Source: Escherichia phage LHE287
Length of the DNA: 64,000 nt
Sequence record: PP761450.1
Reading direction: 5' to 3' (one strand)
Position 1 is the first letter of the stretch; every line of letters begins with the position of its first letter. The notes beneath the pieces were generated by a model. The model saw only the letters and a program-made list of their open reading frames with translations, did not search any database and had not been told where the DNA came from. Below are positions 2,808-40,347 of the stretch, piece after piece. The position numbers and the translations under genes were made by a program.

Positions 2808-2847
2808 CACAGTGTATTCCTTCAGTTCACAATGTAGGGCTAAAATT

Positions 2848-3860: not shown

Positions 3861-3939
3861 GGCGATTCTCCTTATTTCATTGGATGAAATGATAGGCGGC
3901 TCACCATGATGAGTAAAGGGATTCAATAAACTATCGTAT

Positions 3940-4389
3940 TCAGAAACGGGTATCGCTGACCGTTCTGTATCGCACACCCTGAAACTGTTTAGCGAGTTTA
4001 ACAAATTCCATCGCTGGCAAATCAACTTTGTAGACCTTCATGCGCTGTTTGCCGTCCATGTTCAACGCAGCGACAAATCGGTGAGAACCGTCAACAACGT
4101 AATTGTCAGAAGATACCCAAACTCGACCCATAGGTTTCTTATTTCTGATCTGCTTCATAATCTTCCAGACCTTCATTTTATTGATTTCGTTCTGGGTAAG
4201 ACGAAGCGTTTTGATGGGCACTTGCGCAGCATCTATGGACACGCCGTTGTCTTCAAGATATTTGTGAAAATCTTCTTGTTTGTCGGCATCGATTTGCGGC
4301 ATAGAAGAACGAGAAAGCCCGAGGTTCCCAACAGGAATCCTCAGGCCGTTAATGATGTTCAACCAGTCAATAAAAGATGTAAGGAACAT
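3940..4389 (-). CDS. hypothetical protein
   Basis: 149-aa ORF, ATG with GAGGTG RBS. Confidence 0.5.
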   Translation of the reverse strand: MFLTSFIDWLNIINGLRIPVGNLGLSRSSMPQIDADKQEDFHKYLEDNGVSIDAAQVPIKTLRLTQNEINKMKVWKIMKQIRNKKPMGRVWVSSDNYVVDGSHRFVAALNMDGKQRMKVYKVDLPAMEFVKLAKQFQGVRYRTVSDTRF

Positions 4390-4421
4390 GACACACCTCG
4401 GGATATAGGGTTATCCCTTAG

Positions 4422-4622
4422 TTAGCGCATCCATCGATCCTTTCTCTCTTTCTCCTTGCGTTCGCGACGTTTCTGGTCGGATCGGAATAACCAATAGAAG
4501 AAGTTCCCACCCAAGATGAAAACCACCGCGATTATTACTAGGACACCCTTCACAATTTCCCAAACCAATTCTTTATCCAAATTATACCTCTTCTTCTTCT
4601 TCTTCTTCAGGTCCACCGTCAA
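4422..4622 (-). CDS. possible small membrane protein (no ATG start; TTG or GTG or frameshift product)
   Basis: ORF-track frame contains a hydrophobic helix VLVIIAVVFILGG and a basic tail; begins inside the (GAA)6 run of the upstream gene. Confidence 0.25.
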   Translation of the reverse strand: MTVDLKKKKKKRYNLDKELVWEIVKGVLVIIAVVFILGGNFFYWLFRSDQKRRERKEKERKDRWMR

Positions 4623-4878
4623 TCAGGATACGAGCGGCGTCGAAAGTTTCCCCGCCCGTGTTCAGCAGCTTGGTCAGATCGTCAAGATATCGGACCGTGC
4701 CAAGATCAGATGACCGCGATATGAACTCCAGCATACCATACAACGCTGTTTGGAATCGGCTGTTATCGATATCGTTCTTTATTACCATCAGGCGCAAGAT
4801 GTTCTCTGACTGAGTATGGCCAACACACGCCTTGTCTCTGATCATCTCCTTGATAGAACTTCTCTCTGATGGTGTCAT
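4582..4878 (-). CDS. hypothetical protein with C-terminal poly-Glu tail
   Basis: 98 aa ending EEEEEEEV, encoded by a (GAA)6 run; ATG with G-rich RBS. Confidence 0.45.
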   Translation of the reverse strand: MTPSERSSIKEMIRDKACVGHTQSENILRLMVIKNDIDNSRFQTALYGMLEFISRSSDLGTVRYLDDLTKLLNTGGETFDAARILIDGGPEEEEEEEV

Positions 4879-5249
4879 AACGTACCCCCGACAGAGATCA
4901 AGAACTCTTCTTGCATGGTCTTGACCGGGTGGTGGTTGCGGGTTTCGAACATGAAGCCCCAGCCACCGTCGGCGACGTTGCCAAAGGTCTTGACGCCAAA
5001 GGACTTCGTCCCGTTGGAGCAGGAATAGATGTCCAGGACGTATGGGCTACCCTGATTGTCGATCCCACGATTCACGTCGTCTGATACGCAGCGCTCAATC
5101 ATCTTCCCGTTCTTATACAGAACGAGGTCTTGGCCATACGCCTTGAAAGCATAAACACCGTTGGTAGACACTCCGGTGATGACAGGAGGGGCGGAAACAG
5201 CAGCAAAGGAAGCGCCCAGCAGGGCAACAGCGAGGATTAACTTTTTCAT
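4875..5249 (-). CDS. secreted protein (signal peptide)
   Basis: Start MKKLILAVALLGASFAAVSA at 5249. Confidence 0.5.
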   Translation of the reverse strand: MKKLILAVALLGASFAAVSAPPVITGVSTNGVYAFKAYGQDLVLYKNGKMIERCVSDDVNRGIDNQGSPYVLDIYSCSNGTKSFGVKTFGNVADGGWGFMFETRNHHPVKTMQEEFLISVGGTL

Positions 5250-5308: not shown

Positions 5309-5548
5309 TTAACTGATGTGCTTCAGAAGAGCGAAGAGGATCGCGGCCTTGGCCTTTACCTTTCCTACGATGCCTGTTTCGACATCAACTTCTTCAGCAA
5401 CCCACTCTTTTCCCTTCTTGCTGATGATAACGTCACGACGCTGTGCGTAGACTTCTTTGGTCGCATACACACGGCGGAACCCTTTAGCGCGGAGCAATCC
5501 CCAATTGCGATCAATTTCTACTGAGGTTTCTACCATTTTGTTCTTCAT
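5309..5548 (-). CDS. hypothetical protein
   Basis: 79-aa ORF; upstream AAGGTAAG...TTATATC-ATG. Confidence 0.45.
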   Translation of the reverse strand: MKNKMVETSVEIDRNWGLLRAKGFRRVYATKEVYAQRRDVIISKKGKEWVAEEVDVETGIVGKVKAKAAILFALLKHIS

Positions 5549-5599
5549 GATATAATCTTACCTTTCAACCCGGTGAACCCATCGTTCGCCAGTTATTGA

Positions 5600-5629
5600 A
5601 TAATACGCATTTACCTTATAGAAGTAAAC
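5600..5629 (-). promoter_or_regulatory. candidate sigma70/T4-early-type promoter (GTTTAC-N18-TATTAT)
   Basis: Minus-strand -35 GTTTAC (5624-5629) and -10 TATTAT (5600-5605), upstream of gene starting at 5548. Confidence 0.4.
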
Positions 5630-5640
5630 CCCTAAAAGTA

Positions 5641-5667
5641 AAAATCCCCAACAAACGTTGGGGATTT
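5641..5667 (-). terminator. rho-independent terminator
   Basis: ccccaac/gttgggg stem followed on the minus strand by TTTTTACTTTT; downstream of gene 5682..5906. Confidence 0.55.
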
Positions 5668-5681
5668 AATAAAAGTTATGC

Positions 5682-5906
5682 CTATTTAATTTCTCGGCTT
5701 GAATTTTCTAGTTCTAATTTTCTTATAGCGGAAATTCTGCCTTCATCAGTTGCGGGAAACTCCCAAACAGCACGACGCCCATTGTTGGTATCACAACTTG
5801 CCAGCCAGCAGAAATTAGAGGGGTCCTTAAACAAGACCAACTTCGGATTTCCTAAATTGATGAGGTTAAACGGGGTGAGGTCAACAACACATGATATAGC
5901 AGACAT
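5682..5906 (-). CDS. hypothetical small protein flanked by the two repeat copies
   Basis: 74-aa ORF, ATG with AGAAGG RBS. Confidence 0.4.
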   Translation of the reverse strand: MSAISCVVDLTPFNLINLGNPKLVLFKDPSNFCWLASCDTNNGRRAVWEFPATDEGRISAIRKLELENSSREIK

Positions 5907-5951
5907 AACATATACCTTCTTTCAATGAACGGGAACGCCCCGATCTATGAA

Positions 5952-6020
5952 TTCAATAATACGCATTTACCTTATAGAAGTAAACCCCTAAAAGTAAAAA
6001 TCCCCAACGTTTGTTGGGGA
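5952..6020. repeat. Direct repeat copy 2
   Basis: Same core as 5596..5667; the hairpin is present with its loop reverse-complemented. Confidence 0.7.
5956..5985 (-). promoter_or_regulatory. candidate sigma70/T4-early-type promoter (GTTTAC-N18-TATTAT)
   Basis: Same element as 5600..5629, upstream of gene starting at 5906. Confidence 0.4.
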
Positions 6021-27534: not shown

Positions 27535-29007
27535 TTAGTTCAAGACATATTTGATCAGTCCACAATTCCAAATCCTGACCAGCCCGGCTTCGGTTGCTAA
27601 CTGGCTTTCTGTTTTGCCTTCTACGTCATACCCCATGCGAGCAAATGAACCTTTTCTGAAACCGAATTTGTGCTCACGCATAAATGTGCCAGGCTTGTGG
27701 TATTTGTAGTCTGGCTTCTGTACTTCCTCTTCTACGAATCCGTGGGATAGGTAAATGTTGGACAACCTGCTTACAACACACCTATCCCCAAAGGAATAGA
27801 TTTTGGTGTCGGTAAATTTTCTTCTGAAGTGTGAAAGAAGTTTACTGAATGCCCCGTGGCAATCATTAGAGGCAAATCTGACTAATTCCAGGCCATCTTT
27901 CCTTTTAGTGAATAGCATCACGGCTTGTATGACCCCACTCTTGTCAATTAACGACAAATGGTGGGTGGAAGAAACGGAACCTTGTATGTGGTGGTTGTCT
28001 AAAAACTCCCTCAAGCCGCTTATATTCCCCCAAACGACTTTGTGTTGGCGAGCATATGACGCGGGTGTTTTAATGCCAAGTTTAGCTTTCAGAAGAGATT
28101 TGACCACTTCCTGTTTCTCAACCCATTCATCTTCCCAGATGTGGATCAACTGGATACCCTGAGTTTCACATATTTCAGTCTTTTCCAGGTGATAATGTTT
28201 CTCTTTAAAAACTTCTGAATGCCAGTACAGGCCATTAAATTCGATCGCCAATTTGTGTTCAGGGCAATAGATATCCAGTTGTTTACCGGATAATATACTG
28301 TAATCAGAAACAGTGTTTACAACTCCCATTGAGGTGAGAAACTCGGATATTTCCTTTTCATAAGAAGATTTCTTGTTCCTGATAGAACCATTGCTGAACA
28401 ACGCACGTTTTAGTATGTTCGAGTTTTTCATAGGGTTGTCAACACCATAACGTTCTTGTAACGTTGCCAACGCCTTCTCCCTCACACCAGGTAATTGTAG
28501 TGTGGAGCAGCTTCCGTATTTGGATATATTCGAATTCTCTATGGCTTTCCGACCAATCCCACCTTTACACATAGAAACCTGATAACATTCTTCAGAACAA
28601 TATGTTCTGTAATCTTTATTATTGATATAAAAGTTGGTTTCCTTGGAACACACCGGGCATATTTTCACGGTTCTATTGTACAGCCAAGCTGTGACTTTAC
28701 AAGCCAAATCTTGTAGGGTGTTGTGGGTATTGGCGAACACTAAAAGGTCTACATTGATGTGCTTCATAAGCAGTTCAGATTTGCATTTTTGGATATCCAA
28801 TTTGTTGTTCTTGGTAAACATATATTTGTAGAAAAATTGGCGATATGATTCCTCGTCAGACAATTCATTCACTGCTTCAAGGAAACCTTCCGGGAGGTTC
28901 TTTAGGGTGTTCGATGCGAAGGTCTTGCAAGCATCTGAACAAAATTTCTTATCTTTCCTGGATGCTTTGAACTGTTCATGGCAGACACTACAGATTACCT
29001 GATACAT
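27535..29007 (-). CDS. free-standing nuclease: zinc-finger N-terminus plus Vsr-like (PD-(D/E)xK) domain; putative homing endonuclease
   Basis: PEHKLAIEFNGLYWHSE and GIQLIHIWEDEW parallel E. coli Vsr PKHRLAIFVDGCFWHGH and GWRVLIVWECAL; two CxxC...C clusters; GGAGGAG RBS at start 29007. Confidence 0.6.
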   Translation of the reverse strand: MYQVICSVCHEQFKASRKDKKFCSDACKTFASNTLKNLPEGFLEAVNELSDEESYRQFFYKYMFTKNNKLDIQKCKSELLMKHINVDLLVFANTHNTLQDLACKVTAWLYNRTVKICPVCSKETNFYINNKDYRTYCSEECYQVSMCKGGIGRKAIENSNISKYGSCSTLQLPGVREKALATLQERYGVDNPMKNSNILKRALFSNGSIRNKKSSYEKEISEFLTSMGVVNTVSDYSILSGKQLDIYCPEHKLAIEFNGLYWHSEVFKEKHYHLEKTEICETQGIQLIHIWEDEWVEKQEVVKSLLKAKLGIKTPASYARQHKVVWGNISGLREFLDNHHIQGSVSSTHHLSLIDKSGVIQAVMLFTKRKDGLELVRFASNDCHGAFSKLLSHFRRKFTDTKIYSFGDRCVVSRLSNIYLSHGFVEEEVQKPDYKYHKPGTFMREHKFGFRKGSFARMGYDVEGKTESQLATEAGLVRIWNCGLIKYVLN

Positions 29008-29111: not shown

Positions 29112-30443
29112 TTAGAAAAGTCCCTTAATTAACCCTTTGCGGAAATACACGTTGGTGTCCTTGGCGATACCATCCGCAGTCACATAGACCTGTGGATCCT
29201 GGTTCGCTGGGATCTGAACGAATGGGTTAGCACAAATCCCGTAGCGGGTCTTGAACGCCATACGTGGTGCGAAGGTGGTTTCACCCTGGGTGCGGTACAT
29301 TTCCAGCGGTACATACGGTGCGAAGAAGATACCAGCGTCCAGCGCAGTTGCGCCTTTGTATGCCAGGGTGATGTATTCTGCTACTGCATACGGGTCGATG
29401 TAGACACGCATACCGTTAGACAGCACACCAGCGAAGGTCTGACCAGTCGGATCAATCGCCAGCTTGGTGTTTTCCTGCAGCGCCGGAGCATAATCCAGCA
29501 TACCGGACATCGCCAGGGCAGACGCTACGTTCGGGGAGCACAGAACACGGTTGCCTTTACCACGACGGGTGTCAACACCGATGCCGTTCGCTTCAACTTC
29601 CAGCATGAAAGTCATGTACTTCCATTTTTCCAGCGCCCAACGACCGGAGATGTCAGTGGAGATGTCTACGATACCGTTGGTGCCGAATTTTTTGAAGCGT
29701 ACTGCGCTGAAGTTCATGGTGCGGATAAACTCACGGTTCATCTCTGCCTGAATTTCAGTTACCATCACGTCGGACAGGATGCTGTCAACGTCTTCGCCGT
29801 GGATCGCCATCATGTCCTGGCGCAGTTCATGGCTGTAGTCAGCGTACAGGCCGCGAGACTTCGCAGTCACGGTTGCTTTCTGAACGGTGATACCGACACG
29901 TGCCCATGGGTTGGTGGTGGTGCCCAGCAGTTCAGCGTCGGAAGTTGACATACCTTTACCGATGGTGGTGGTAGCAGCGCCGGAACCTTCGATCTCAGTC
30001 TGGGAGAAGCCAGATGGGTCGCCAGCCTGTGCAGTGTCGTCACCAGAGTAGCCAGAATCAGCTTCCTGCATGAACAGTTCTTTACGGGACTGTGCGGTGT
30101 TGGAACCGTCTGCAACACCTTGGCGAGCACGCAGTGCGAAGATCTGACCGTCAGGACCAGACAGCGGTTGAACACCGAAGAAGTCCATCGCGATGTTGAC
30201 CGGAGCCAGACGTTTGGCCATGTCGATCAGGACTGGCTGCCATTTACCCACAGAGGTGTTCACGGAGCCAGGAGCGTCGGATTCGCCCAGGTTTTTGGCG
30301 TTCCACTCAGCCTGGTTTTGCAGCAGACGGACGGCAACGTTTTCGGCAGAAAGCGGCTGGATGCTTTCAGATTCTTTCTGAAGAACTGGCAGCCACTGCT
30401 CGCGCATTTGTTCAGTAACAAGTTTCTTAGCCATGATGGTCAT
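29112..30443 (-). CDS. gp23: major capsid protein (gp23-like)
   Basis: 443 aa with extensive similarity to T4 gp23 (FALRA, TTNPW, EINRE, FAGVL, RVYIDPYA, DAGIFFAPYV, FKTRYGI, YFRKG). Confidence 0.9.
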   Translation of the reverse strand: MTIMAKKLVTEQMREQWLPVLQKESESIQPLSAENVAVRLLQNQAEWNAKNLGESDAPGSVNTSVGKWQPVLIDMAKRLAPVNIAMDFFGVQPLSGPDGQIFALRARQGVADGSNTAQSRKELFMQEADSGYSGDDTAQAGDPSGFSQTEIEGSGAATTTIGKGMSTSDAELLGTTTNPWARVGITVQKATVTAKSRGLYADYSHELRQDMMAIHGEDVDSILSDVMVTEIQAEMNREFIRTMNFSAVRFKKFGTNGIVDISTDISGRWALEKWKYMTFMLEVEANGIGVDTRRGKGNRVLCSPNVASALAMSGMLDYAPALQENTKLAIDPTGQTFAGVLSNGMRVYIDPYAVAEYITLAYKGATALDAGIFFAPYVPLEMYRTQGETTFAPRMAFKTRYGICANPFVQIPANQDPQVYVTADGIAKDTNVYFRKGLIKGLF

Positions 30444-31423: not shown

Positions 31424-32092
31424 TCAGCCCAGATGTTTCAATGCGATATCGAGGCGGCGCAGGAAGTCGTCTTCTAACTGAATATTGGTTTTTACCAATG
31501 AATCGACCACATGCCCCTTAATGTCCTTAGGAACCCAAATTCCTGAAGATTCATCAAGCTGCCATTCCACAGATTCGCTCACAGCCTTTACATAACAAAC
31601 TTGTCCAGAAGGACGGTCGACTGCATCAACAGCAGTGAGCATAAAGCCGGGTTGAACGTCATCATAGCCGTTCACTGACTTGGTCTCACCAAGGCCACGT
31701 GTAGACACTGCCAGGTTGAAGTCTGCTTCAGCCAGAGCACGAATGATCTGACCTTTCGGTGTATTCAGGATCCGCGCTCGACCGATAGCGTTGGTGCCTT
31801 CCCAGCGCAAAGATTCGGTTTTGAGTGCAGCGTGTTCGATATCGGGGAAAGGATAATCCGGATGCTTGAGTTCACCGATTGCACGACGATCCTGGATATA
31901 CTCTTTGTCGTATGCTTCGACAGCAGGGATACCCACTTTTTGGAGATCGTAGTTGCGACCATTACGGTTCACCTGGTTACACATCACGAATGGACCTTCG
32001 ATGTACATGGCTTTGCCGCCAGTAGCCGTGGCCGCTTCACCAATCTGAAGGTCTTTCCCTATCGCAGTGATCTCACGCAACAGTTTCATCAT
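31424..32092 (-). CDS. gp21: prohead protease (gp21-like)
   Basis: GELKHP, GRARI, STRGLG match T4 gp21 signatures. Confidence 0.85.
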   Translation of the reverse strand: MMKLLREITAIGKDLQIGEAATATGGKAMYIEGPFVMCNQVNRNGRNYDLQKVGIPAVEAYDKEYIQDRRAIGELKHPDYPFPDIEHAALKTESLRWEGTNAIGRARILNTPKGQIIRALAEADFNLAVSTRGLGETKSVNGYDDVQPGFMLTAVDAVDRPSGQVCYVKAVSESVEWQLDESSGIWVPKDIKGHVVDSLVKTNIQLEDDFLRRLDIALKHLG

Positions 32093-32099
32093 TCGCTCC

Positions 32100-32405
32100 T
32101 TAACTCAGTCCCATCATACGACGGAACTTCATTGCTTTTTTCTTACGACGCTCGATTTTGCGTTGGTATCCCATACCCATGCGTTTCTTGGCTCGGATCG
32201 CCTTGCGGTTGCCCAGCTTGCGGGTACGGCGCTCACTGGCGACCATCACCTCACAACGGGAACCATCCGCAGACAGTTTGAAACCAGGAGCACACTGCAG
32301 ACGGCGACGGCGTTTGCCTTTTGCGTTCACCTTGTCAATGACTTTCTGCTCATCCATGCGGGAAGCCAGGAAATCAGCGAACGTTGCAACTTCTTCGATT
32401 TCCAT
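32100..32405 (-). CDS. basic prohead core protein (gp68-position)
   Basis: 101 aa, highly basic C-terminus; position between portal and protease. Confidence 0.4.
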   Translation of the reverse strand: MEIEEVATFADFLASRMDEQKVIDKVNAKGKRRRRLQCAPGFKLSADGSRCEVMVASERRTRKLGNRKAIRAKKRMGMGYQRKIERRKKKAMKFRRMMGLS

Positions 32406-32417
32406 GATACATTCCTC

Positions 32418-32639
32418 TTACTGGTCGTCGCCGAAAGGACCCATGTCTTGGCTCAGGGAGTTCAAGACATATTCAGTACCCTGCTGGACCAGTTCTTGGG
32501 CGCGAGCGGATAGCTCCATTTCGCATTCAGCAGCAGCGGCATCAGTATCACCGGCGATGATTGCTTTTACCAGATCGATAGCAGCCATGTTCATATCCTC
32601 TAAATGTTTTCTATACTTAGTCGAATTATTCTTCACCAC
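32418..32639 (-). CDS. small acidic protein (gp67-position prohead core protein?)
   Basis: 73-aa ORF in the portal-protease interval. Confidence 0.35.
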   Translation of the reverse strand: MVKNNSTKYRKHLEDMNMAAIDLVKAIIAGDTDAAAAECEMELSARAQELVQQGTEYVLNSLSQDMGPFGDDQ

Positions 32640-34320
32640 CAGGAGGGTTAGTCGCTGGGATGACGTTAGGTCTGAATTTCAGTGGACTGACTTCCCCGCT
32701 GCCGAAGCCGCCGGACTCATCTGCCTGCACTTCAGGGTATTTGCCTTCTTTCTTCTCTTTCGCGATCTTCTCTTGCTGGTCTTTGATGTCTTCATCGGAC
32801 ATACGCAGCAAATTTCGTTGAGCAAAATCGATAGAGAAGAGAGTGCCGATATATGGTTCGATCTGACCGAGAGCCGCCATACGCTGTGACAAGATTTCGT
32901 TCTCTTGTTGTTCACGGATGAAGCTGTCAGAAGTGAATTCGAACTTGACGAACGGCTTGATCTTCTCATTCCAGTCAGCCTGATCTGTAATGCCTTTCAA
33001 TATCAGTTGACGGCGCAGAAGTTCCAGGAAGATACCAGAAGAATAACGACGGCGCAGGCTCGCACAGAACTTGTTGAAGCGCAGTTCTTCCTGTGTGATT
33101 TCAGCAAGATTGGAACCACCGATGTTGATGGAACCTTCCTCTTGCAGGCGGCTCTTAGGGATCATCAGAGCCTCGTAGAGCTTCTCGCGGAAGTATACCA
33201 CATGATCCATTTGACCCAGTTGATCGCCACCGCCTACGTTGGAGATCTCGGTTGCGTTCTGCCCTTCGCGACGTGGTAGCCAGTAGTCCTCAGCGATACC
33301 CATCAAATGAGTGTTACCAGCCACCTTACCAGTGGTGCGATCATACGCCAGACGGTTCTTGAATTTGCCCATCATGGCTTGCATGTATTCTTCGGCCGAC
33401 TTCTTACCCAGCGTACCCACGTCGAGATAGAACGCTCGCTTCTCAGGAGCACGTGTGATCGCATAGATCACCGTTGCATCTTCAGTTGTAACAAGGTTGT
33501 TCAGGGGACGGATAGCTGGGTTCAGCAGGCTTGGTACAACCCCATTTGCCAGAGGCTCTTCACCACTGTCCAGATACACTATGCTCTCATCATCAAACAC
33601 CAGCTCTTGCTGTGACGGTTGGAAGTTCTGAGACGTACCGGACTGGCCAGTGAATTGGTTGCGGTTGTAGTTCGGGTTGTAGTAGTATTGAAGTTTTACG
33701 TCATTGATGACTTCGATACCGTCGCGCATCGCCTTTTGAACGATGTACACTGGGCGGATACAGCGTGAGTCCATCATGATGAGTTTGGCGATACCCGCTT
33801 TCTTGTTCTTCGGGTCCACCACAACGTGGAATGCCTGACGGCCTTCAATATACCATTTGCGGATCTTCTGATACGCTGTGTTGTCAAAGTCAAGGAGATG
33901 CATGATCTCTTTGAATGCGTCAGTGATCTTCTCTTTGACTTCGTCTGTGATGCCATCTACCTTTTCCAGGTTGATGGTTACAGGAGTCTCTTCCTCTTCA
34001 CAAGTGACGACGTCGTTGACAATGATATCCACAGCCTTACGAATCTCAGGCTGCTGAGCCATAGACTGGTACTCTTCGACCAGCTGTTTGACGTTGAGCA
34101 ACTCATTCTCAACACCAACGAAATTGAATGTGTTCGCGCCGCCCTGGAGGATGATGGAACCATCCTGAGAATCGTCCAGCGCAACAACAGTCGCTTTTGA
34201 AAGCAACTTCTCTTCTTGGTTCGTGACCATCTTGTCGGTATCAATCGGCGCTTCTACTTTGCCGCCTCTGCCGAACAAGCCGAAGAACCCATTTCCGAAT
34301 GCACCATTACCGAATGCCAT
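32626..34320 (-). CDS. gp20: portal protein (gp20-like)
   Basis: 564 aa; position upstream of prohead core/protease/capsid genes and size consistent with T4 gp20. Confidence 0.75.
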   Translation of the reverse strand: MAFGNGAFGNGFFGLFGRGGKVEAPIDTDKMVTNQEEKLLSKATVVALDDSQDGSIILQGGANTFNFVGVENELLNVKQLVEEYQSMAQQPEIRKAVDIIVNDVVTCEEEETPVTINLEKVDGITDEVKEKITDAFKEIMHLLDFDNTAYQKIRKWYIEGRQAFHVVVDPKNKKAGIAKLIMMDSRCIRPVYIVQKAMRDGIEVINDVKLQYYYNPNYNRNQFTGQSGTSQNFQPSQQELVFDDESIVYLDSGEEPLANGVVPSLLNPAIRPLNNLVTTEDATVIYAITRAPEKRAFYLDVGTLGKKSAEEYMQAMMGKFKNRLAYDRTTGKVAGNTHLMGIAEDYWLPRREGQNATEISNVGGGDQLGQMDHVVYFREKLYEALMIPKSRLQEEGSINIGGSNLAEITQEELRFNKFCASLRRRYSSGIFLELLRRQLILKGITDQADWNEKIKPFVKFEFTSDSFIREQQENEILSQRMAALGQIEPYIGTLFSIDFAQRNLLRMSDEDIKDQQEKIAKEKKEGKYPEVQADESGGFGSGEVSPLKFRPNVIPATNPPGGEE

Positions 34321-34386
34321 GATTAAGTCCTCAACATTTTCTTGTAATTAGTGAGGGGGAATAAAGATCCCCCAGCACTGAGGACA

Positions 34387-34920
34387 TTAGAGAGACTTGT
34401 CTGAAATGGCCTGGAAGTAACGCAGGTCAACAGTGAACTGAGTATAAGAGTCCATTGCAGACATGTCCAGTTCCAGCTGACCGAGGTTCTGAGGCCAGGT
34501 GCCCTGAAGGGTCCAGGTCTTGGTGACGTTGTCATTCGCATCCAGCAGTTCCATGATTACATCACGGAAATAATCATCTGGGTTAGCAGACGCACGGTTG
34601 TTGTTGCTGCCGTTGATATACTGCTGCCAGACTTCGAATGCGTTGTACGGGGCGTTGTCCACGACGTTGATGAACGTCACAGGCAGAGCCTCGAAACGAC
34701 GGTCGCCTGGGAATGGAAGTTCACGACCACCCCATGGGACGAGTATTTCCCCGAGCTGGCCTGTTGGGGTATTTGTGGTCACCGCTAACAGCGAAACATC
34801 ACGGATGGTATCGCTTCCAGCCACGAAGGAAGGGAAGTTAACAGTCACACGCCAACGGTGTTGGCGCTGAACGCCGCCCCCGCGTGACATAGCTGCTCTG
34901 AATTCATTAACTGTAGCCAT
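34387..34920 (-). CDS. gp19: tail tube protein (gp19-like)
   Basis: 177 aa; C-terminal LGQLELDMSAMDSYTQFTVDLRYFQA parallels T4 gp19 LQLDWDSNNEIQTFEVTLALDYWE; late motif upstream. Confidence 0.7.
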   Translation of the reverse strand: MATVNEFRAAMSRGGGVQRQHRWRVTVNFPSFVAGSDTIRDVSLLAVTTNTPTGQLGEILVPWGGRELPFPGDRRFEALPVTFINVVDNAPYNAFEVWQQYINGSNNNRASANPDDYFRDVIMELLDANDNVTKTWTLQGTWPQNLGQLELDMSAMDSYTQFTVDLRYFQAISDKSL

Positions 34921-34946
34921 GGTCGTTCTCCTCTGAATAGTGTAAA

Positions 34947-34953
34947 TATTTAG
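34947..34953 (-). promoter_or_regulatory. late-promoter-like CTAAATA motif
   Basis: 27 nt upstream of the tail tube gene. Confidence 0.45.
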
Positions 34954-35311
34954 TTTTGAAATAAATGGGGGTTAAAATACCCCAAAGTGAGGATATTTAT
35001 TATGTCATTCCCCCGATAAAATTGTTCATGCTACCACAAACCGTTCACCCCAACCAGGAAGGCTGCGTTGTATTGTAGTGACGAATGTAAATCATTCATG
35101 CTGGGAACGATGAAACGCAACTCAGATTTATTGGTCAATCTTCCGGCGACCGAAACTGAATGCCGCTCTTGGGTTGATAGTAAACTCAGGAAGAAAGATG
35201 GTTCGTTGAACTTGGATACGATACAGAAGGAAAACAGAGGATATGCTGGCGATAGAAGCCGGGTTGGGTGTATCTGGGGTGTGGTCTTATCCGGTATGAA
35301 CTGGAAACTAA

Positions 35312-35330
35312 AACCCCGCCTCAGCGGGGT
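35312..35330 (-). terminator. hairpin terminator
   Basis: aaccccgcc-tca-gcggggt followed on the minus strand by TTTAGTTT. Confidence 0.5.
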
Positions 35331-35336
35331 AAACTA

Positions 35337-35693
35337 CTATTTGCGAATGCTAACCTGAGCATAATACACATGATAATCACCATGGGCACGGAAGCTGGTG
35401 AGGTGGAATGTGACGAGGTGGCTCCCGAAAGCTACAACTTTGGTATCTGGGGAGCATAAATCATTAGCCAGTTCACCCAGAACCTTACCACAAAACTCCT
35501 CAACGATAGCGTTAAATCTGTCAATGTGTGGACTGGTCACCGTCATTGGACCAACATCTGCACAGTAGATCCCTTTTATCATCTTTCCCTGGCTGTCGCG
35601 TACTGGCTTTGCAGGCTGGTAAGGATTGATGCGGCGTTTCAGGTTACAGAGGCCGATTTCTTTCAGGATAGCGTTAATTTCAGTCTTGGTCAT
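35337..35693 (-). CDS. hypothetical protein (accessory gene between sheath and tube genes)
   Basis: Start MTKTEIN (35693) with AAGGAA-CTATATC-ATG; sigma70-like promoter upstream. Confidence 0.45.
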   Translation of the reverse strand: MTKTEINAILKEIGLCNLKRRINPYQPAKPVRDSQGKMIKGIYCADVGPMTVTSPHIDRFNAIVEEFCGKVLGELANDLCSPDTKVVAFGSHLVTFHLTSFRAHGDYHVYYAQVSIRK

Positions 35694-35740
35694 GATATAG
35701 TTCCTTCGTTTCAAGTTGGTGTCGTACTGCTTATGTTTAG

Positions 35741-35768
35741 AATTATACGTGAGTTATTGAAGAAGTAA
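35741..35768 (-). promoter_or_regulatory. candidate sigma70/T4-early-type promoter (TTTACT-N16-TATAAT)
   Basis: Minus-strand -10 TATAAT (35741-35746) and -35 TTTACT (35763-35768). Confidence 0.4.
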
Positions 35769-35802
35769 AGTAATTCAATAAAATAATCTGGGAAAAATTT
35801 AA

Positions 35803-35821
35803 AACCCCGCCGAAGCGGGGT
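35803..35821 (-). terminator. UUCG-loop terminator
   Basis: accccgcc-gaag-gcggggt; U-run on the minus strand. Confidence 0.55.
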
Positions 35822-35825
35822 CTTG

Positions 35826-36128
35826 TTACACTTTGCTGTATTTCTTAAACAATTTACCGAGTTCACCTGGGGCTTCTCGAGTTCCAGCAGCTTTGCTAAC
35901 AACCTGTTTATCTTTCTTCAGGTCGAATACTTTGATCTCTTTGCCATTATATGTATATTCAAAATCATCAATGGTTATGCGGAAGAAATCTCCAAATACT
36001 CCATTTTCGATATCACCCTTTTTGAGCCTTACATCTTGGTCTTCCAACCATTCAATCACGGAGTCTTTAACTTTCTGAAGGTCACCTTTTAGGCCTGCTT
36101 CTGCTAAAAATTGAGAAAAACTTTTCAT
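35826..36128 (-). CDS. hypothetical protein
   Basis: 100-aa ORF with GAGGT RBS. Confidence 0.45.
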   Translation of the reverse strand: MKSFSQFLAEAGLKGDLQKVKDSVIEWLEDQDVRLKKGDIENGVFGDFFRITIDDFEYTYNGKEIKVFDLKKDKQVVSKAAGTREAPGELGKLFKKYSKV

Positions 36129-36144
36129 AACAATACCTCAATGT

Positions 36145-36160
36145 GCCCTCCGAAGAGGGC
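36145..36160 (-). terminator. UUCG-loop hairpin after sheath gene
   Basis: gccctc-cgaag-agggc. Confidence 0.4.
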
Positions 36161-36170
36161 ATGGAGTAAA

Positions 36171-38066
36171 TTAAGAAACGGCTACGATACCACCACCAGT
36201 TTCGATCTCGCTGAACTCCATGTCCGGACGTACCGCAGCAAAGTCCAGATACACCCAGTTGATGGAGTATTCTGGTTTCAGCCAGATACCCGCGACCATC
36301 TGGTTCGCAGCGATAACATCAGCGGTGTTGTTGTCCTCGTCACACTTCACCATCCCGTCATAGATCGCGCCCATGTTGGCCAACTGGCGGATATATGGGC
36401 GGACAGCGTTGCTGAACAACCCACGAGTGAATGCATCGTTGTTCTCACCAAGGTAGTATTTGGCGATGGCTGCGATGTTCTGCTCTGCCATAATGAACAG
36501 ACCACGAACGTTGATGCGGTCGAACGCAGATGGGCGGGTCAGGCCAGTCTTGTCGCCGTACAACACGATGCCTTCGTTGGAGAAGGTGACGATGCTGTTG
36601 ATCTGGTTGCGATACAGCACAGCACGCTCATCAGAAGACGCAGACCACGCCATTCGATTATAGTTGTTGTATTTACCACGGTTGTGGAACGCTGGAGACT
36701 TGTAGATACCCGCGATTTCAATGCTTCGCGCCCAAACACCTGCGGTGCCGCCACAAGCCGGAATCCAACGCATTTTGTCGTTGTACTTGTCGTACACATA
36801 CGCCCAGTTGTCATCCATGAAGAAGTAGGAGGAGTCGCGAACAAGGCTTTCACGCCAGGCCACAACATCATCCATCTCACGGCCACGGTTTCCGACGACC
36901 GTATCGCGAAGAGGAGACACGAAGGACACTGTGTCTTTACGCTCAGTGGACAGGTCGATCAGCGCCTGCTGCTCAATCAGTTCTTCACAGAAACCGAACA
37001 CTGGCTTGGCATCATACGCTTCGGCGTTGTTCAGTGCCTGGATAGCCGCAACACGGTTCCCAGTGTAATCGTCTACACCACCTTCGAGTTCAATGACACC
37101 AGCAGCCAGGGTATTGGCGAAGGCGTACACCCAATTTGAGGTGCCGTTGATCACGTCTTTGAAGTACGCATTGGATCCATCAGATTTCTTAGAACCCTGA
37201 GCGGTCTGCACCAGTTCATACTTCTCGATGATCGTACCGGAAGCACCAACAGTGGTGACGGCAGCGGTAGCAGTCAGACCATTCGCGTCTGGAACAATCG
37301 CAGTCGCAGCCTGAGGACCGATTGCTTTGTGAGTGACGGTGACGGTGTTGGACTTCACGACAACAGAAGAATACACTTCAGACAGGGACGTCAGCGCAGT
37401 TCCGATCTTTGTCGCCAAGGTCGCCGGGGTGTCAGCGTCAGTGTACGCCACGGCTTCACCAGCAACAGAGATGGAACCAGCAGCGGTGGCAGTACCGGAT
37501 ACAGAGATACGATCAACCTGACTAACAGCGCCAGAAGAGTCGGTGATGCGACCTACTTTGTCAACGATGGCGATATGGTACTCGCCATCCTGCGGAGCAT
37601 ATGCGAAGTTGTTACGGAATTCCCAGGTCGGGAACAGCGCAGCGTCACAGATGTTCACAGCAATGTCGTTACCCAGAGAGCCAGCATAGCGGCCTGTCCA
37701 GGTAATAGACGCAGATGGAGACGCAGTTTCGAAGTCTAGTTTGTTGCGGATAAGGATTGCAGTCTGACCTTTGGTTACAGCGTTGCGTGCCGCCGGACCG
37801 ACCACACGGGTCACCCATGCAACAGAGCTGTAAGACAGGAAGTCAGCAATCACCAAGAAGTCGGTGGCAGTTGCATCGTTTGGCTTGAAGAATTTCTTCA
37901 CCAGACCAGTTTCGCCACCAGTGACCAACACAGGGAGTTCTGCTTCACCCCATTGGAATTTGCCGACAGTCGCACCCTGAACAACAACGGATGGAGACGT
38001 CTGAAGCGTGGCATCACGCTCAGTCCACTGTACGGACGGCGCAACGCTGAAGCTTTGAGTTGCCAT
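36171..38066 (-). CDS. gp18: tail sheath protein (gp18-like)
   Basis: 631 aa from MATQSF start (38066) with GAAGGA RBS; position between terminase and tube genes; late motif at 38109. Confidence 0.8.
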   Translation of the reverse strand: MATQSFSVAPSVQWTERDATLQTSPSVVVQGATVGKFQWGEAELPVLVTGGETGLVKKFFKPNDATATDFLVIADFLSYSSVAWVTRVVGPAARNAVTKGQTAILIRNKLDFETASPSASITWTGRYAGSLGNDIAVNICDAALFPTWEFRNNFAYAPQDGEYHIAIVDKVGRITDSSGAVSQVDRISVSGTATAAGSISVAGEAVAYTDADTPATLATKIGTALTSLSEVYSSVVVKSNTVTVTHKAIGPQAATAIVPDANGLTATAAVTTVGASGTIIEKYELVQTAQGSKKSDGSNAYFKDVINGTSNWVYAFANTLAAGVIELEGGVDDYTGNRVAAIQALNNAEAYDAKPVFGFCEELIEQQALIDLSTERKDTVSFVSPLRDTVVGNRGREMDDVVAWRESLVRDSSYFFMDDNWAYVYDKYNDKMRWIPACGGTAGVWARSIEIAGIYKSPAFHNRGKYNNYNRMAWSASSDERAVLYRNQINSIVTFSNEGIVLYGDKTGLTRPSAFDRINVRGLFIMAEQNIAAIAKYYLGENNDAFTRGLFSNAVRPYIRQLANMGAIYDGMVKCDEDNNTADVIAANQMVAGIWLKPEYSINWVYLDFAAVRPDMEFSEIETGGGIVAVS

Positions 38067-38108: not shown

Positions 38109-38115
38109 TATTTAG
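38109..38115 (-). promoter_or_regulatory. late-promoter-like CTAAATA motif
   Basis: Upstream of the tail sheath gene. Confidence 0.45.
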
Positions 38116-38118
38116 TGA

Positions 38119-40347
38119 TCACCGTCTCAGCCATTCTTCCATAGACACACCAGAGCGTTCATCATAAACCTGAATTCCACCGAACCCTGGGATGTTCTCC
38201 ACAGAGTGAGGATCTGGTGTCGACATCATACCCCCAAATGGTAGCATCTGAGATTCTTCCATCGCAGACAACCGTCCTCTCATGTCCACAGAGATATTTG
38301 AATTGGTGAGATCACTAAACCATTCTTGTTTCACCGCCCATGCATACAACACGAGGGGCATTACACAGTCATCATGACAACCATCATCGGCTTCATACCT
38401 TGTTCCAGTCCATACGAATGTACTGAGTTCATCTATCGTGTCCTGGTCATCTATCACCAGCATTTCACGTTCAATCAGGGCTTTCAGGTTGGCACAGCCG
38501 TTTGTGCGCACCTTCTTGTTGGTATTGATACCAGGCTCAGGGCGGCGACCACCGATTCTCTTGCCTGTACCCTTGGTATCTGTTGTAGTGAAGATGATCT
38601 CGGGATATTCAATTTCCTGGTATAGAATTGTGATTACCTGACCACCCACGTCGTTGTTGGTCTCGACTAGCATCGGGCACGTTCCATACTTCTCACCCAT
38701 ATCGGCGATTGTGTACGCGTACATCATTGGAGGTATCGTGTTATTTCGATACTTGGCTGCGATCTTGTGAGGATAGTCTGTGATGTCGATAATGGTCAGC
38801 ACAGAATAATCCCCTTCGACACCCTTGCCTGTATCTGCGATACCCATATAGATGCGCTTAGGATCGTAGTCGTGATAAATCTTGGTGAACTCGTTCGGCT
38901 CCTGATACAGCTTCGAGGTCATCTTGTCCAGACACTTGGCAGGTATCAGTGATCCCACAGAACCACGGAACTTAATGCCAAATTCTTGATCGAAACGTGC
39001 ATCACCCAGCTTCGCCCTTTGTTTGGATTCCCAGTCTGGATCTTTGGTGTACGTTGGAACACGATACCATGGGACCTCTGTGAGTTTGAAGTCGTTGTAT
39101 TGTGGATGTTCTGGGTTCGCCTTGGTGACGATGTCGTAGAACAACCCGCGCTGACCTTTCGGCGTACTGGTCAGAATACAACGTGAAGTCTCTGCAGATG
39201 CAATCGCCGGGAATGTAGACTCCCAGAATTCAAAGTCGTTTTCAATGAACGCCACTTCGTCCACATACAGGAGCGATACAGATCGACCACGGATGGAGTC
39301 GGAAGATGTCGCATAGGCGTAGATCTTTGATCCGTTTTCGAACTCTATCAGCGTGGAACCGAACTTCTCACAACCCTGTTGGAGGAAGAATGGCAAATCT
39401 TGATATGCTTTGCGAATACGATCTAGGATTTCAATCGCCTGCTTCTCTTTGTTCGCCAGTACTGCGATCTCTTTGTCGGAGTGGAACATCGCATACCAGA
39501 GCAGGAACGCTGCCACGACAGTCGTGTTGTGGCTGAGGAAGCCGTTGGTGTAGTAGCGCTGATCACTAGATTTCACCTGTAGGTCATACATGTGATGCGT
39601 CTCACCAGTCTGCCAAACCTCACGGATTTCTTCTGGACCTTCTGACGTCATGATGTATGACCCAGCATTCAGGTCTTTGGCAAATATCTCCTTCATTTCC
39701 GGAGTGAAGAATATATGTTCGTCGGCCACGTTAATTCGCCGCCCAGTAACAGTCACAATAACGAATTCCGCATATTTCTTCGTCTTATGCGCTGCGATAA
39801 CCGGAACCCAGCCACTATCGGATTGCACAAAGTAACGCTTGCCGAAGCGGCTGTCCACGAACTTGTCATGGTTGCCAATGGTATTCAGCGGCACAGCGTG
39901 GTTGACGTCCTCGAAGCGGCTGTGAAGCTCCCCTATGGTCAGGAGCAACTGCTCTTGGCTGAGAGTATCGTAAACTGTGACAAGCGTGTCACCTTTTACA
40001 CATTTCCCAGACTGACGAGCCTGGACGACCGCATTGAATCGATAGTCCTGGAAGTCATGGAACAACTGCTTCTGGTAATCGTGCATGTCAAAGAGGATGA
40101 AGCCTTTATCGATGGTCGTGATCTTGTAGTAGTTGGCGGCGAAGTAATGGGCGTCCATCGCACACTCGACGAACTCCGATTCTTGTTCGTCGGTTAGCAT
40201 CAACTCCACACGAGGTGCACGCACAGACGGCTTGCGCATGAACGTTTGGTCCATACGCAGTCTGACGTCTTCTGTCTTAAACCCCGTCTTGAGCGGGGCG
40301 TATTCTACATCACGCTTCTGATACGCCATTGTCTTCACCTTCTCCAT
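38119..40347 (-). CDS. gp17: terminase large subunit (gp17-like) interrupted by an in-frame mini-intein
   Basis: Exteins match T4 gp17 around the P-loop (ARQSGK / TTVVAAFLLWYAMF...AIEILDRIRKAYQDLPFFLQQG); 159-aa insertion begins CVKGDTLV and ends NGFLSHN followed by Thr. Confidence 0.85.
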   Translation of the reverse strand: MEKVKTMAYQKRDVEYAPLKTGFKTEDVRLRMDQTFMRKPSVRAPRVELMLTDEQESEFVECAMDAHYFAANYYKITTIDKGFILFDMHDYQKQLFHDFQDYRFNAVVQARQSGKCVKGDTLVTVYDTLSQEQLLLTIGELHSRFEDVNHAVPLNTIGNHDKFVDSRFGKRYFVQSDSGWVPVIAAHKTKKYAEFVIVTVTGRRINVADEHIFFTPEMKEIFAKDLNAGSYIMTSEGPEEIREVWQTGETHHMYDLQVKSSDQRYYTNGFLSHNTTVVAAFLLWYAMFHSDKEIAVLANKEKQAIEILDRIRKAYQDLPFFLQQGCEKFGSTLIEFENGSKIYAYATSSDSIRGRSVSLLYVDEVAFIENDFEFWESTFPAIASAETSRCILTSTPKGQRGLFYDIVTKANPEHPQYNDFKLTEVPWYRVPTYTKDPDWESKQRAKLGDARFDQEFGIKFRGSVGSLIPAKCLDKMTSKLYQEPNEFTKIYHDYDPKRIYMGIADTGKGVEGDYSVLTIIDITDYPHKIAAKYRNNTIPPMMYAYTIADMGEKYGTCPMLVETNNDVGGQVITILYQEIEYPEIIFTTTDTKGTGKRIGGRRPEPGINTNKKVRTNGCANLKALIEREMLVIDDQDTIDELSTFVWTGTRYEADDGCHDDCVMPLVLYAWAVKQEWFSDLTNSNISVDMRGRLSAMEESQMLPFGGMMSTPDPHSVENIPGFGGIQVYDERSGVSMEEWLRR
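39526..40002 (-). other. mini-intein coding segment within the terminase large subunit gene
   Basis: N-terminal Cys codon at 40000-40002, C-terminal His-Asn at 39526-39531, +1 Thr; YDLQV...NGFLSHN block; no endonuclease domain (159 aa). Confidence 0.75.

What the first reader, a model, noticed from the sequence alone, without database searches (positions are those of the whole stretch)
34955..36170. Accessory insertion between tail sheath and tail tube genes
In T4 genes 18 and 19 are adjacent. Here they are separated by about 1.2 kb holding two small genes (100 and 118 aa), each with its own terminator, one with a sigma70-like promoter and the early-type CTATATC-ATG initiation region, plus about 380 nt (34955-35336) with no ORF. 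Early-type signals inside a late operon suggest a moron expressed independently of virion assembly.
Basis: partly seen in the sequence, partly recalled or inferred. Interest (0 to 1): 0.45.

Follow-up and report, generated by a model that had tools for sequence, protein, structure and literature searches.

The report
Dead homing endonuclease plus two hitchhiker genes
The 1.2 kb between the tail sheath and tail tube genes of this ViI-like (Ackermannviridae) phage is a known landing site for selfish homing-endonuclease genes, and here it holds a broken endonuclease gene, a small gene with its own portable promoter, and a small late gene whose start resembles the T4 signal for packing proteins into the phage head.

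Summary
The window is an Ackermannviridae (ViI-like) E. coli phage, not T4, and its sheath-tube spacer is a variable homing-endonuclease (HEG) hotspot across that family.

- **The "380 nt with no ORF".** This is the internally deleted (about 1.46 kb lost) and frameshifted remnant of a 594-aa Hef-like HEG on the opposite strand. The gene is intact in phages ZQ1, A221, PC3, Mutine and LIMEstone1 (F-LimVIII). Four independent assemblies carry the same deletion junction, so it is a real, decaying pseudogene.
- **Past homing.** The first 120-240 nt of the tube gene travel with this HEG across subfamilies, which is a co-conversion signature.
- **The 118-aa gene (phrog_13016).** It lies inside a terminator-promoter-leader cassette (TTTACT-N16-TATAAT). 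That cassette occurs 2-4 times per genome in 282 relatives and drives unrelated ORFs elsewhere, like the PeSL cassettes of T4-type phages. This supports the "independently expressed moron" reading for this gene only.
- **The 100-aa gene.** It has no promoter of its own and follows the sheath gene after a hairpin with no U tract. It begins MKSFSQFLAE, close to the T4 capsid-targeting sequence MKTYQEFIAE. It may be a packaged internal protein, but this is untested.

Overall this is ordinary mosaicism with one interesting lead.

The parts
36171..38066 (-). Tail sheath gene (gp18), the upstream flank. A late-promoter-like CTAAATA lies at 38115..38109.
   Evidence: ORF. Annotated as sheath in ZQ1 and others. 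The CTAAATA motif lies 25-50 nt upstream of start codons in 11 of 13 cases, and all 13 are on the - strand.
36144..36161 (-). GC-rich UUCG hairpin just after the sheath stop codon, with no U tract. It is conserved in relatives whose site is empty and probably lets transcription read through.
   Evidence: Fold energy -15.9 kcal/mol, z -3.3. The same hairpin is present in MK-13, Magnus, YX22, S118 and AV101.
35826..36128 (-). 100-aa ORF with no promoter of its own. Residues 1-10, MKSFSQFLAE (36099-36128), resemble the T4 capsid targeting sequence and end in an L-x-E site.
35801..35824 (-). Intrinsic terminator that ends the sheath/100-aa transcript. It also forms the stem-loop of the PeSL-like cassette.
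   Evidence: -17.3 kcal/mol. The same terminator directly follows gp18 in A221, Mutine and LIMEstone1, and follows the 100-aa gene in Magnus.
35694..35769 (-). Portable promoter and leader: -35 TTTACT (35769..35764), -10 TATAAT (35747..35742), then the leader ...TTGAAACGAAGGAACTATATC before the ATG.
   Evidence: 3 hits against 0.17 expected; 282 records, 2-4 copies per genome, up to 98.7% identity; annotated as a putative middle promoter in LIMEstone1.
35337..35693 (-). 118-aa ORF, family phrog_13016, a confidently folded alpha+beta protein of unknown function.
35313..35330 (-). Terminator of the 118-aa gene. It abuts the 3' end of the endonuclease remnant on the other strand.
35002..35311 (+). 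Pseudogene of a Hef-like free-standing homing endonuclease. It keeps codons about 1-70 and about 557-594 of a 594-aa gene, has lost about 1460 bp, and carries 8 single-base indels.
   Evidence: Window 34300-35212 aligns to ZQ1 L001:1501-2413 and window 35202-36300 aligns to L001:3874-4976. The intact ZQ1 protein matches DUF7487 at 1.3e-24 and phrog_3339 at 3.5e-191.
35202..35212 (+). Deletion junction. In the intact gene an imperfect 11-12 nt repeat sits at both ends of the lost segment (TTCGTTGAACT / TTCCTTAAACT).
   Evidence: The same junction is present in L024, L026, L027 and L030.
34947..34953 (-). Late-promoter-like CTAAATA for the tube gene. It lies in a palindrome (TAAATATTTA) that could also have driven the endonuclease gene divergently.
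   Evidence: LIMEstone1 carries overlapping divergent late promoters annotated at the equivalent place.
34681..34920 (-). First 240 nt of the tube gene: a tract of almost entirely synonymous differences that travels with the Hef-like endonuclease (co-conversion tract and presumed target region).
   Evidence: Mutine is 98% identical to the window over nt 1-120 but 82% over nt 241-534. Its fellow Kuttervirus S118 shows the reverse pattern against Mutine.
34387..34920 (-). Tail tube gene (gp19), the downstream flank.
   Evidence: Pfam Phage_T4_gp19 / Phage_TTP_2.

Best explanation
The sheath-tube spacer of this Ackermannviridae phage is a family-wide landing pad for free-standing homing endonuclease genes. 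Here it carries three unrelated accessory modules stacked by recombination.

1. **A dead Hef-like homing endonuclease gene on the opposite strand (35002-35311).** It once spread by cutting endonuclease-free genomes in or near the 5' end of the tube gene. Repair then copied it across together with flanking DNA. In this lineage it was later inactivated by one 1.46-kb deletion between short repeats and is now decaying.
2. **A self-contained cassette holding the 118-aa gene.** The order is terminator, sigma70-type promoter, conserved leader, 118-aa gene, terminator. It is transcribed by host RNA polymerase before or independently of the late operon. In some genomes it rode along with the endonuclease. 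The protein most likely binds a host factor (takeover or counter-defence).
3. **A promoterless 100-aa gene just after the sheath gene.** It is read through from the sheath late promoter. Its T4-like capsid-targeting N-terminus suggests it is loaded into the prohead, cut after Glu10 by the gp21-type protease, and injected with the DNA.

Shown: the pseudogene identity, the shared deletion junction, the variable-site pattern, the co-conversion mosaic, the multi-copy cassette and the motif match. Inferred: endonuclease activity and target, transcription timing, and the function of both small proteins.
For: **Pseudogene.**
- Colinear alignment to the intact ZQ1 gene on both sides of a 1460-bp gap, with all 8 indels confined to the remnant.
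- The intact orthologue matches DUF7487 and phrog_3339 'homing endonuclease'.
- The LIMEstone1 orthologue F-LimVIII is classed as Hef-like, with the tail tube gene listed as target or downstream gene (PMC3296691).
- The same junction occurs in four independent assemblies, with further substitutions, indels and an extra 11-nt loss.

**Hotspot.** The site is found in several states:
- empty;
- GIY-YIG endonuclease;
- Hef-like endonuclease;
- Hef-like endonuclease plus the 118-aa gene;
- GIY-YIG endonuclease plus the 100-aa gene;
- the 100-aa gene alone;
- both endonucleases together.

**Co-conversion.** Mutine and LIMEstone1 are 96-98% identical to the window over tube-gene nt 1-120 but 82-85% identical further in.

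**Cassette.**
- Promoter found.
- Three TTTAC-N17-19-TAWWWT hits on the - strand against 0.17 expected.
- The 77-nt promoter and leader occur in 282 records, 2-4 times each, up to 98.7% identical, while the ORFs downstream are about 30% identical or unrelated.
- It matches the PeSL promoter consensus TTTACW-N17-TAYWAT (PMC4122927).

**100-aa gene.**
- A 42-nt gap filled by a hairpin with no U tract.
- In L021-L023 it is the only gene between the sheath hairpin and the tube late promoter.
- The CTS-like motif is unique among 2,691 Met-initiated ORF candidates in the window plus the whole ZQ1 genome, and the same pattern picks out T4 IPII and IPIII.
- The T4 CTS sequence is given in PMC8442874.
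Against: - No transcript, proteome or nuclease data exist for this phage or close relatives.
- The nuclease-domain assignment of the intact orthologue is below Pfam cut-offs: MTES_1575 at 22.5 bits against 38.2, and DUF559 at 20.0 against 20.6.
- The 118-aa cassette also occurs far from any endonuclease. Its link to homing is therefore circumstantial.
- For the 100-aa protein:
  - no similarity to T4 IPI/II/III exists beyond the first 11-13 residues;
  - there is no Pfam or PHROG hit;
  - no other protein of this phage carries the motif;
  - in SKML-39 a terminator separates the homologue from the capsid gene.
Confidence: 0.8

Rival explanations
1. A single moron insertion carries both small genes, both are expressed early and independently of virion assembly, and a non-coding spacer sits beside them.
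For: The 118-aa gene has a sigma70-like promoter, a leader shared with small genes elsewhere, and terminators. Both genes are sporadic among relatives.
Against: The two genes occur separately in relatives: A221 and PC3 have only the 118-aa gene, while Magnus and L021-L023 have only the 100-aa gene. The 100-aa gene has no promoter and abuts the sheath gene. The 'spacer' is an endonuclease pseudogene.
Confidence: 0.12
2. The roughly 400-nt remnant is kept because it now works as a non-coding element, for example a small RNA, an antisense regulator of the 118-aa gene, or a long leader or insulator for the tube gene.
For: A remnant of 403-416 nt persists in five independent sequences. It contains the tube late promoter and a small hairpin at 34968-34983.
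Against: No Rfam family reaches its gathering score; the best match inside the remnant itself scores 19.8 bits against 43. The remnant differs from ZQ1 by 5-6% plus 8 indels, while the flanking genes are 98-100% identical. One lineage lost a further 11 nt. The small hairpin folds no better than shuffled sequence, z -0.6. Empty-site phages manage with a 78-nt spacer.
Confidence: 0.07
3. The 100-aa protein is a cytoplasmic late accessory protein, or a sheath/tube assembly helper. Its resemblance to the T4 capsid targeting sequence is a chance amphipathic N-terminal helix.
For: Only about 10 residues match. No other protein of this phage has the motif. There is no structural match to IPI*. The model has only moderate confidence, pLDDT 72.8. 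The gene's usual position is between two tail genes.
Against: The motif hits 1 of 2,691 candidate ORFs here and selects the true T4 internal proteins. M-[KR]-[ST]-F-x-x-[FY]-L-x-E followed by G, A or R is kept in all family members although the x positions vary. The SKML-39-type variant has a second L-S-E site in a 5-residue insertion. The phage encodes the gp21-type protease and prohead core proteins. An essential assembly role is unlikely because the gene is present in only 6 phage records.
Confidence: 0.45
4. The deletion and frameshifts are assembly or sequencing errors, and the phage really has an intact endonuclease gene.
For: Most of the single-base indels lie in homopolymer runs. The exact junction is absent from IMG/VR.
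Against: The same junction occurs in four assemblies from different sequencing runs and sources. Between the window and ZQ1 the indels are confined to the remnant and absent from about 1.7 kb of flanking coding DNA.
Confidence: 0.02

Closest known systems
F-LimVIII of Dickeya phage LIMEstone1, and the Hef homing endonucleases of T4-type phages (Sandegren et al. 2005, as cited in PMC3296691)
   Same: Same site (between the sheath and tube genes) and same opposite-strand orientation. The orthologous intact genes in ZQ1, A221, PC3 and Mutine are homologous, and divergent late-promoter-like signals are present.
   Different: Here the gene is a pseudogene. The DUF7487 repeats and the nuclease region are deleted, and what remains is frameshifted.
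PeSL cassettes (promoter-early stem-loop) of T4-type phages (Arbiol et al. 2010, PMC2839356; PMC4122927)
   Same: A terminator stem-loop followed by a TTTACW-N17-TAYWAT-type promoter. Several near-identical copies occur per genome, and they flank small ORFs that differ between related phages.
   Different: Found in Ackermannviridae, which the PeSL paper searched here (PMC4122927) does not mention. The conserved unit extends through about 45 nt of 5' leader up to the ATG. In this copy the stem-loop and the -35 element are about 30 nt apart. Recombination at the cassette is inferred, not observed.
[quoted passage not shown]
   Same: N-terminus MKSFSQFLAE against MKTYQEFIAE, ending in an (L/I)-x-E protease site at the same position. 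Size is about 100 aa (IPI 95, IPII 100). The gene is non-essential and sporadic, and a gp21-type protease is present.
   Different: The mature part has no detectable sequence or fold similarity. The protein is near neutral (pI about 8) rather than strongly basic like IPII and IPIII. It lies in the tail-gene block. Packaging and cleavage are untested.
GIY-YIG endonuclease between the tube and sheath genes of Vi01, PhiSH19, S118 and Magnus
   Same: A different selfish nuclease occupies the same spacer. This shows that the site itself is the hotspot.
   Different: It is an unrelated nuclease family on the same strand as the late genes. It is absent from this window.

Membership tests
Hef-like free-standing homing endonuclease gene | Sequence homology to Hef / F-LimVIII-type genes | tested here: met
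   The remnant is 94-95% identical in nucleotides to both ends of the ZQ1 gene. The ZQ1 protein matches phrog_3339 at 3.5e-191 and DUF7487 at 1.3e-24. F-LimVIII is classed as Hef-like in PMC3296691.
Hef-like free-standing homing endonuclease gene | Intact reading frame with the nuclease region | tested here: not met
   About 1460 bp are missing, including residues 346-411 where the weak DUF559 and MTES_1575 matches lie. Eight frameshifting indels are present. This is a pseudogene, not a working member.
Hef-like free-standing homing endonuclease gene | Free-standing between conserved genes, present or absent among close relatives | tested here: met
Hef-like free-standing homing endonuclease gene | Co-conversion of flanking markers | tested here: met
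   The identity gradient in the tube gene follows presence of the endonuclease across subfamilies.
Hef-like free-standing homing endonuclease gene | Site-specific cleavage of endonuclease-free alleles | not testable with these tools
   This needs enzyme assays or phage crosses.
PeSL-type mobile regulatory cassette | Terminator stem-loop followed by an early sigma70-type promoter (TTTACW-N17-TAYWAT) | tested here: met
   Stem-loop at 35824..35801, TTTACT-N16-TATAAT at 35769..35742. The consensus is from PMC4122927.
PeSL-type mobile regulatory cassette | Several highly similar copies per genome | tested here: met
   282 records, 810 places, 2-4 per genome. In ZQ1: a full-length copy at 135769-135908, a copy at 125039-125118 (82.5% over 80 nt), and promoter and leader segments at 91936-92016. 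Only one full copy lies inside this window, plus two related promoters at 5984 and 5628.
PeSL-type mobile regulatory cassette | Flanks ORFs that differ between related phages | tested here: met
   Downstream of the regB-like gene, the cassette precedes a 119-aa paralogue in aagejoakim but an unrelated acidic 111-aa ORF in ZQ1.
PeSL-type mobile regulatory cassette | Observed recombination or excision at the cassette | not testable with these tools
   This is only inferred from the mosaic joints.
T4-type internal (capsid-targeted, injected) protein | N-terminal capsid targeting sequence ending in an (L/I)-x-E cleavage site | tested here: met
   MKSFSQFLAE against MKTYQEFIAE: 5 identical and 3 conservative positions. 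It is unique among 2,691 ORF candidates, and the same pattern finds T4 IPII and IPIII.
T4-type internal (capsid-targeted, injected) protein | gp21-type prohead protease and scaffold core encoded by the phage | tested here: met
   Protease ORF at 31424-32092, with scaffold and core ORFs adjacent. Peptidase_S77 is found on the orthologue in L021.
T4-type internal (capsid-targeted, injected) protein | Homology of the mature part to a known internal protein | tested here: not met
T4-type internal (capsid-targeted, injected) protein | Presence in virions, proteolytic maturation, injection | not testable with these tools
   No proteome is available for any phage that carries the gene.
Moron (autonomous promoter-gene-terminator unit inside a late operon) | Own promoter and own terminator | tested here: inconclusive
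   Met for the 118-aa gene. Not met for the 100-aa gene, which has a terminator but no promoter.

The most novel reading that the evidence does not exclude
The 100-aa ORF may be the first internal-protein-type cargo seen outside the T4-like Straboviridae. On this reading it is made late with the sheath protein and drawn into the Ackermannviridae prohead by a T4-like capsid targeting sequence. The gp21-type protease then trims it after Glu10, and it is injected with the DNA to block a host defence, as T4 IPI* blocks GmrSD. Its near-identical presence (97% amino-acid identity) in a Klebsiella Taipeivirus and in E. coli Aglimvirinae phages would then mark horizontal trade in injected counter-defence proteins.
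Probability: 0.3. Interest if true: 0.6.

Novelty: new member of a known kind. Interest (0 to 1): 0.35.

Why it matters
- **Annotation.** A stretch that looks like "no ORF" inside a conserved phage operon can be the wreck of a selfish gene on the other strand. Here one locus shows several stages of the homing-endonuclease life cycle (invasion, co-conversion, decay) in sequences from many samples.
- **Regulatory cassettes.** ViI-like phages, which are used in biocontrol of Salmonella, E. coli O157 and Dickeya, carry portable promoter-leader cassettes like the PeSLs of T4-type phages. This offers a mechanism for their small-gene turnover.
- **The 100-aa gene.** This is the practical lead. If its T4-like targeting signal works, it is a candidate injected counter-defence protein, and its signal could be used to load foreign proteins into Ackermannviridae heads.

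Tried and rejected
- **Rfam scan of 34000-37000 at E up to 1.** Only sub-threshold hits that overlap the terminators, so there is no known RNA family in the remnant.
- **Profile searches of PDB sequences.** Nothing below E 0.2.
- **Exhaustive phmmer of the 100-aa protein over 1.8 billion representatives.** Three hits. One is a 3,495-aa cadherin/RTX adhesin matched in 7 repeats. I treat that as a repeat artefact.
- **Is the 100-aa ORF a fragment of the neighbouring GIY-YIG gene?** Rejected. It occurs alone and has no Pfam hit.
- **Is the 118-aa gene an obligate partner of the endonuclease?** Rejected. Homologues lie after the capsid gene in Magnus, beside regB-like genes in Kuttervirus, and in early blocks of Straboviridae.
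- **Exact junction search in IMG/VR.** No hits. The junction was later found through protein-anchored contigs.
- **Literature searches for Ackermannviridae transcriptomes or internal proteins.** Nothing usable.
Full report
**What the window is.** The closest genomes are E. coli Ackermannviridae (Aglimvirinae): ZQ1, A221 and PC3 at 97-98% identity. Next come Kuttervirus, Taipeivirus and Limestonevirus at 83-89%. The late genes lie on the - strand:
- terminase gp17 at 38119-40347;
- sheath gp18 at 36171-38066;
- tube gp19 at 34387-34920;
- portal gp20 at 32626-34320.

The motif CTAAATA occurs 13 times, always on the - strand. In 11 cases it lies 25-50 nt before a start codon, including those of gp18, gp19 and gp22. 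I read it as the late-promoter element.

**Observation check.**
- a 100-aa ORF at 35826-36128;
- a 118-aa ORF from 35693 down to 35337;
- terminators at 35824..35801 and 35330..35313;
- a TTTACT-16-TATAAT promoter at 35769..35742;
- the CTATATC-ATG start region;
- a stretch at 34955-35336 with no - strand ORF.

[quoted passage not shown] The window aligns colinearly to ZQ1 on both sides of a 1460-bp gap. Window 34300-35212 matches L001:1501-2413, and window 35202-36300 matches L001:3874-4976. The overlap of 11 nt is an imperfect direct repeat.

About 210 nt of the 5' end and about 110 nt of the 3' end survive. They carry 8 single-base indels and 5-6% substitutions, while the flanking genes are 98-100% identical. 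The intact protein has DUF7487 repeats (1.3e-24), sub-threshold DUF559 and MTES_1575 matches, and phrog_3339 "homing endonuclease" at 3.5e-191. Its LIMEstone1 orthologue F-LimVIII was classed as Hef-like, with the tail tube gene named as target or downstream gene (PMC3296691).

The deletion is real and old. Contigs from four other samples (L024, L026, L027, L030) have the same junction. They have accumulated further substitutions and indels, and one has lost another 11 nt.

**The spacer is a family-wide hotspot.** The states seen among relatives are:
- empty, with a 78-nt spacer, in MK-13;
- a GIY-YIG endonuclease in S118, PhiSH19 and Vi01, and in Magnus together with the 100-aa gene;
- an unnamed 232-237-aa ORF in AV101 and YX22;
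- the Hef-like gene alone in LIMEstone1;
- the Hef-like gene plus a 118/120-aa gene in Mutine, maane, A221 and PC3;
- the Hef-like gene plus both small genes in ZQ1;
- a GIY-YIG gene, the 118-aa gene and the Hef-like gene together in L025;
- the 100-aa gene alone in L021-L023.

**Past homing shows in the tube gene.** Kuttervirus Mutine carries the Hef-like gene. It is 98% identical to the window over tube-gene nt 1-120, 90% over nt 121-240 and 82% beyond. Against its fellow Kuttervirus S118 the figures run the other way, 82% rising to 92%. LIMEstone1 shows the same gradient, 96% falling to 85%. The encoded protein is identical among the window, ZQ1, A221, Mutine, S118, AV101 and YX22. LIMEstone1, MK-13 and Magnus each differ at one or two residues in the first 60 codons. 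This is the pattern expected for a co-conversion tract next to a homing site.

**The 118-aa gene sits in a portable regulatory cassette.** The 77 nt from the -35 element to the ATG occur in 282 Ackermannviridae records, 2-4 times per genome. They are up to 98.7% identical in Kutterviruses, where structural genes are only about 83% identical. Downstream of the regB-like gene this cassette precedes a 30%-identical paralogue in aagejoakim, but an unrelated acidic 111-aa ORF in ZQ1. LIMEstone1 annotates that copy as a terminator plus a putative middle promoter.

In the window, TTTAC-N17-19-TAWWWT occurs three times on the - strand against 0.17 expected. The other two copies are each preceded by a terminator, ahead of small genes near 5.6 and 6.0 kb. 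The architecture and the promoter match the PeSL cassettes of T4-type phages, whose consensus is TTTACW-N17-TAYWAT (PMC4122927).

The protein belongs to phrog_13016 (1.5e-42). Its distribution is scattered: 58 phage records, including Straboviridae, where it lies in blocks of small genes. It folds confidently (pLDDT 93) into an alpha+beta sandwich with no informative structural neighbour. The conserved residues are Lys, Gly, Tyr and Pro, with no conserved acidic, His or Cys residues, so nothing looks catalytic. I therefore infer a binding or inhibitor role in host takeover or counter-defence. This is a guess from context.

**The 100-aa gene is a different kind of thing.** Only 42 nt separate it from the sheath stop codon. 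That gap holds a GC hairpin with no U tract (-15.9 kcal/mol) and a Shine-Dalgarno sequence, and no promoter. The same hairpin sits between the sheath and tube genes in empty-site phages. In L021-L023 the gene is inserted exactly between that hairpin and the tube late promoter. I therefore infer late co-transcription with the sheath gene, ending at the 35824..35801 terminator.

The gene is rare:
- 6 phage records;
- 4 clusters among 5.8 billion proteins;
- 3 hits in an exhaustive search, one of them a repeat artefact.

It is nevertheless 97% identical between this E. coli phage and Klebsiella phage Magnus.

Its N-terminus MKSFSQFLAE|AG matches the T4 capsid targeting sequence MKTYQEFIAE|A (PMC8442874; T4 IPII and IPIII read from NC_000866), including the (L/I)-x-E protease site at residues 8-10. 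A pattern for this motif hits one of 2,691 Met-initiated ORF candidates in the window plus the whole ZQ1 genome. The same pattern hits exactly IPII and IPIII among 138 candidates in 16 kb of T4. All family members keep M-[KR]-[ST]-F-x-x-[FY]-L-x-E. T4 internal proteins are described as diverse apart from this signal, and IPI* is an injected restriction inhibitor (PMC3012670).

Several points count against this reading:
- the mature part has no detectable relationship to T4 internal proteins;
- no other protein of this phage has the motif;
- in SKML-39 the homologue follows the capsid gene but lies behind a terminator.

I give the packaged-protein reading about 0.3.

**Likely history (inferred).**
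1. The ancestral state was an empty site: sheath gene, hairpin, late promoter, tube gene.
2. Endonucleases and the 100-aa gene invaded independently.
3. A Hef-like gene with the 118-aa cassette spread across subfamilies with co-conversion of the tube-gene 5' end.
4. Recombination around the shared CCCCGCTTCGGCGGGG terminator joined the 100-aa module to the 118-aa/Hef module.
5. One deletion killed the endonuclease in the lineage that includes this window.

**Verdict.** The locus is a new example of known phenomena: a homing-endonuclease hotspot and pseudogene, and a PeSL-like cassette. The one real lead is the capsid-targeting-like 100-aa gene.

Noticed in passing
window 39526-40002 (-), inside gp17 at 38119-40347: The large terminase carries a mini-intein-like insert of about 159 residues (CVKGD...FLSHN) that splits the Walker A motif (ARQSGK | TTVVAAF). 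The Pfam Intein_splicing match scores 28.8 bits, below the 35.8 cut-off. Relatives have terminases of similar length (735-742 aa), so the insert seems fixed in the family.
   Followed up: partly
window 27535-29007 (-): An intact 490-aa ORF lies directly after the major capsid gene (29112-30443). ZQ1 annotates the equivalent gene as a homing endonuclease. Its Cys-rich N-terminus resembles that of the dead Hef-like gene, so a live paralogue may sit about 6 kb from the pseudogene.
   Followed up: partly
window 5540-6010 (-): Two tandem units lie ahead of small ORFs. Each consists of a terminator hairpin (CCCCAAC...GTTGGGG) and an identical promoter TTTACTTCTATAAGGTAAATGCGTATTAT. They look like further PeSL-like cassettes.
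   Followed up: partly
whole window, - strand (for example 38115, 34953, 31412): CTAAATA occurs 13 times, all on the - strand. Eleven copies lie 25-50 nt upstream of a start codon and are often followed by CC. This is probably the late-promoter element of this phage group. Relatives with other spacer alleles use CTAATTAGAATTG before the tube gene instead.
   Followed up: partly
L025 (Logan ERR14656809 contig), 2051-5166: One metagenomic relative carries a GIY-YIG endonuclease, the 118-aa gene and an intact Hef-like endonuclease in the same sheath-tube spacer. Two different selfish nucleases therefore occupy this one site.
   Followed up: no
window 32100-32405 (-): The 101-aa prohead core protein begins MEIEEVATFADFLAS. 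The internal TF..FLA string weakly echoes the FSQFLAE of the 100-aa ORF. This may be chance.
   Followed up: no
P0024 (3,495-aa metagenomic protein): A cadherin-repeat/RTX adhesin matched the 100-aa protein in 7 repeats (E 1.3e-8, 28% identity). I judged this a repeat-composition artefact, but it was not examined residue by residue.
   Followed up: partly
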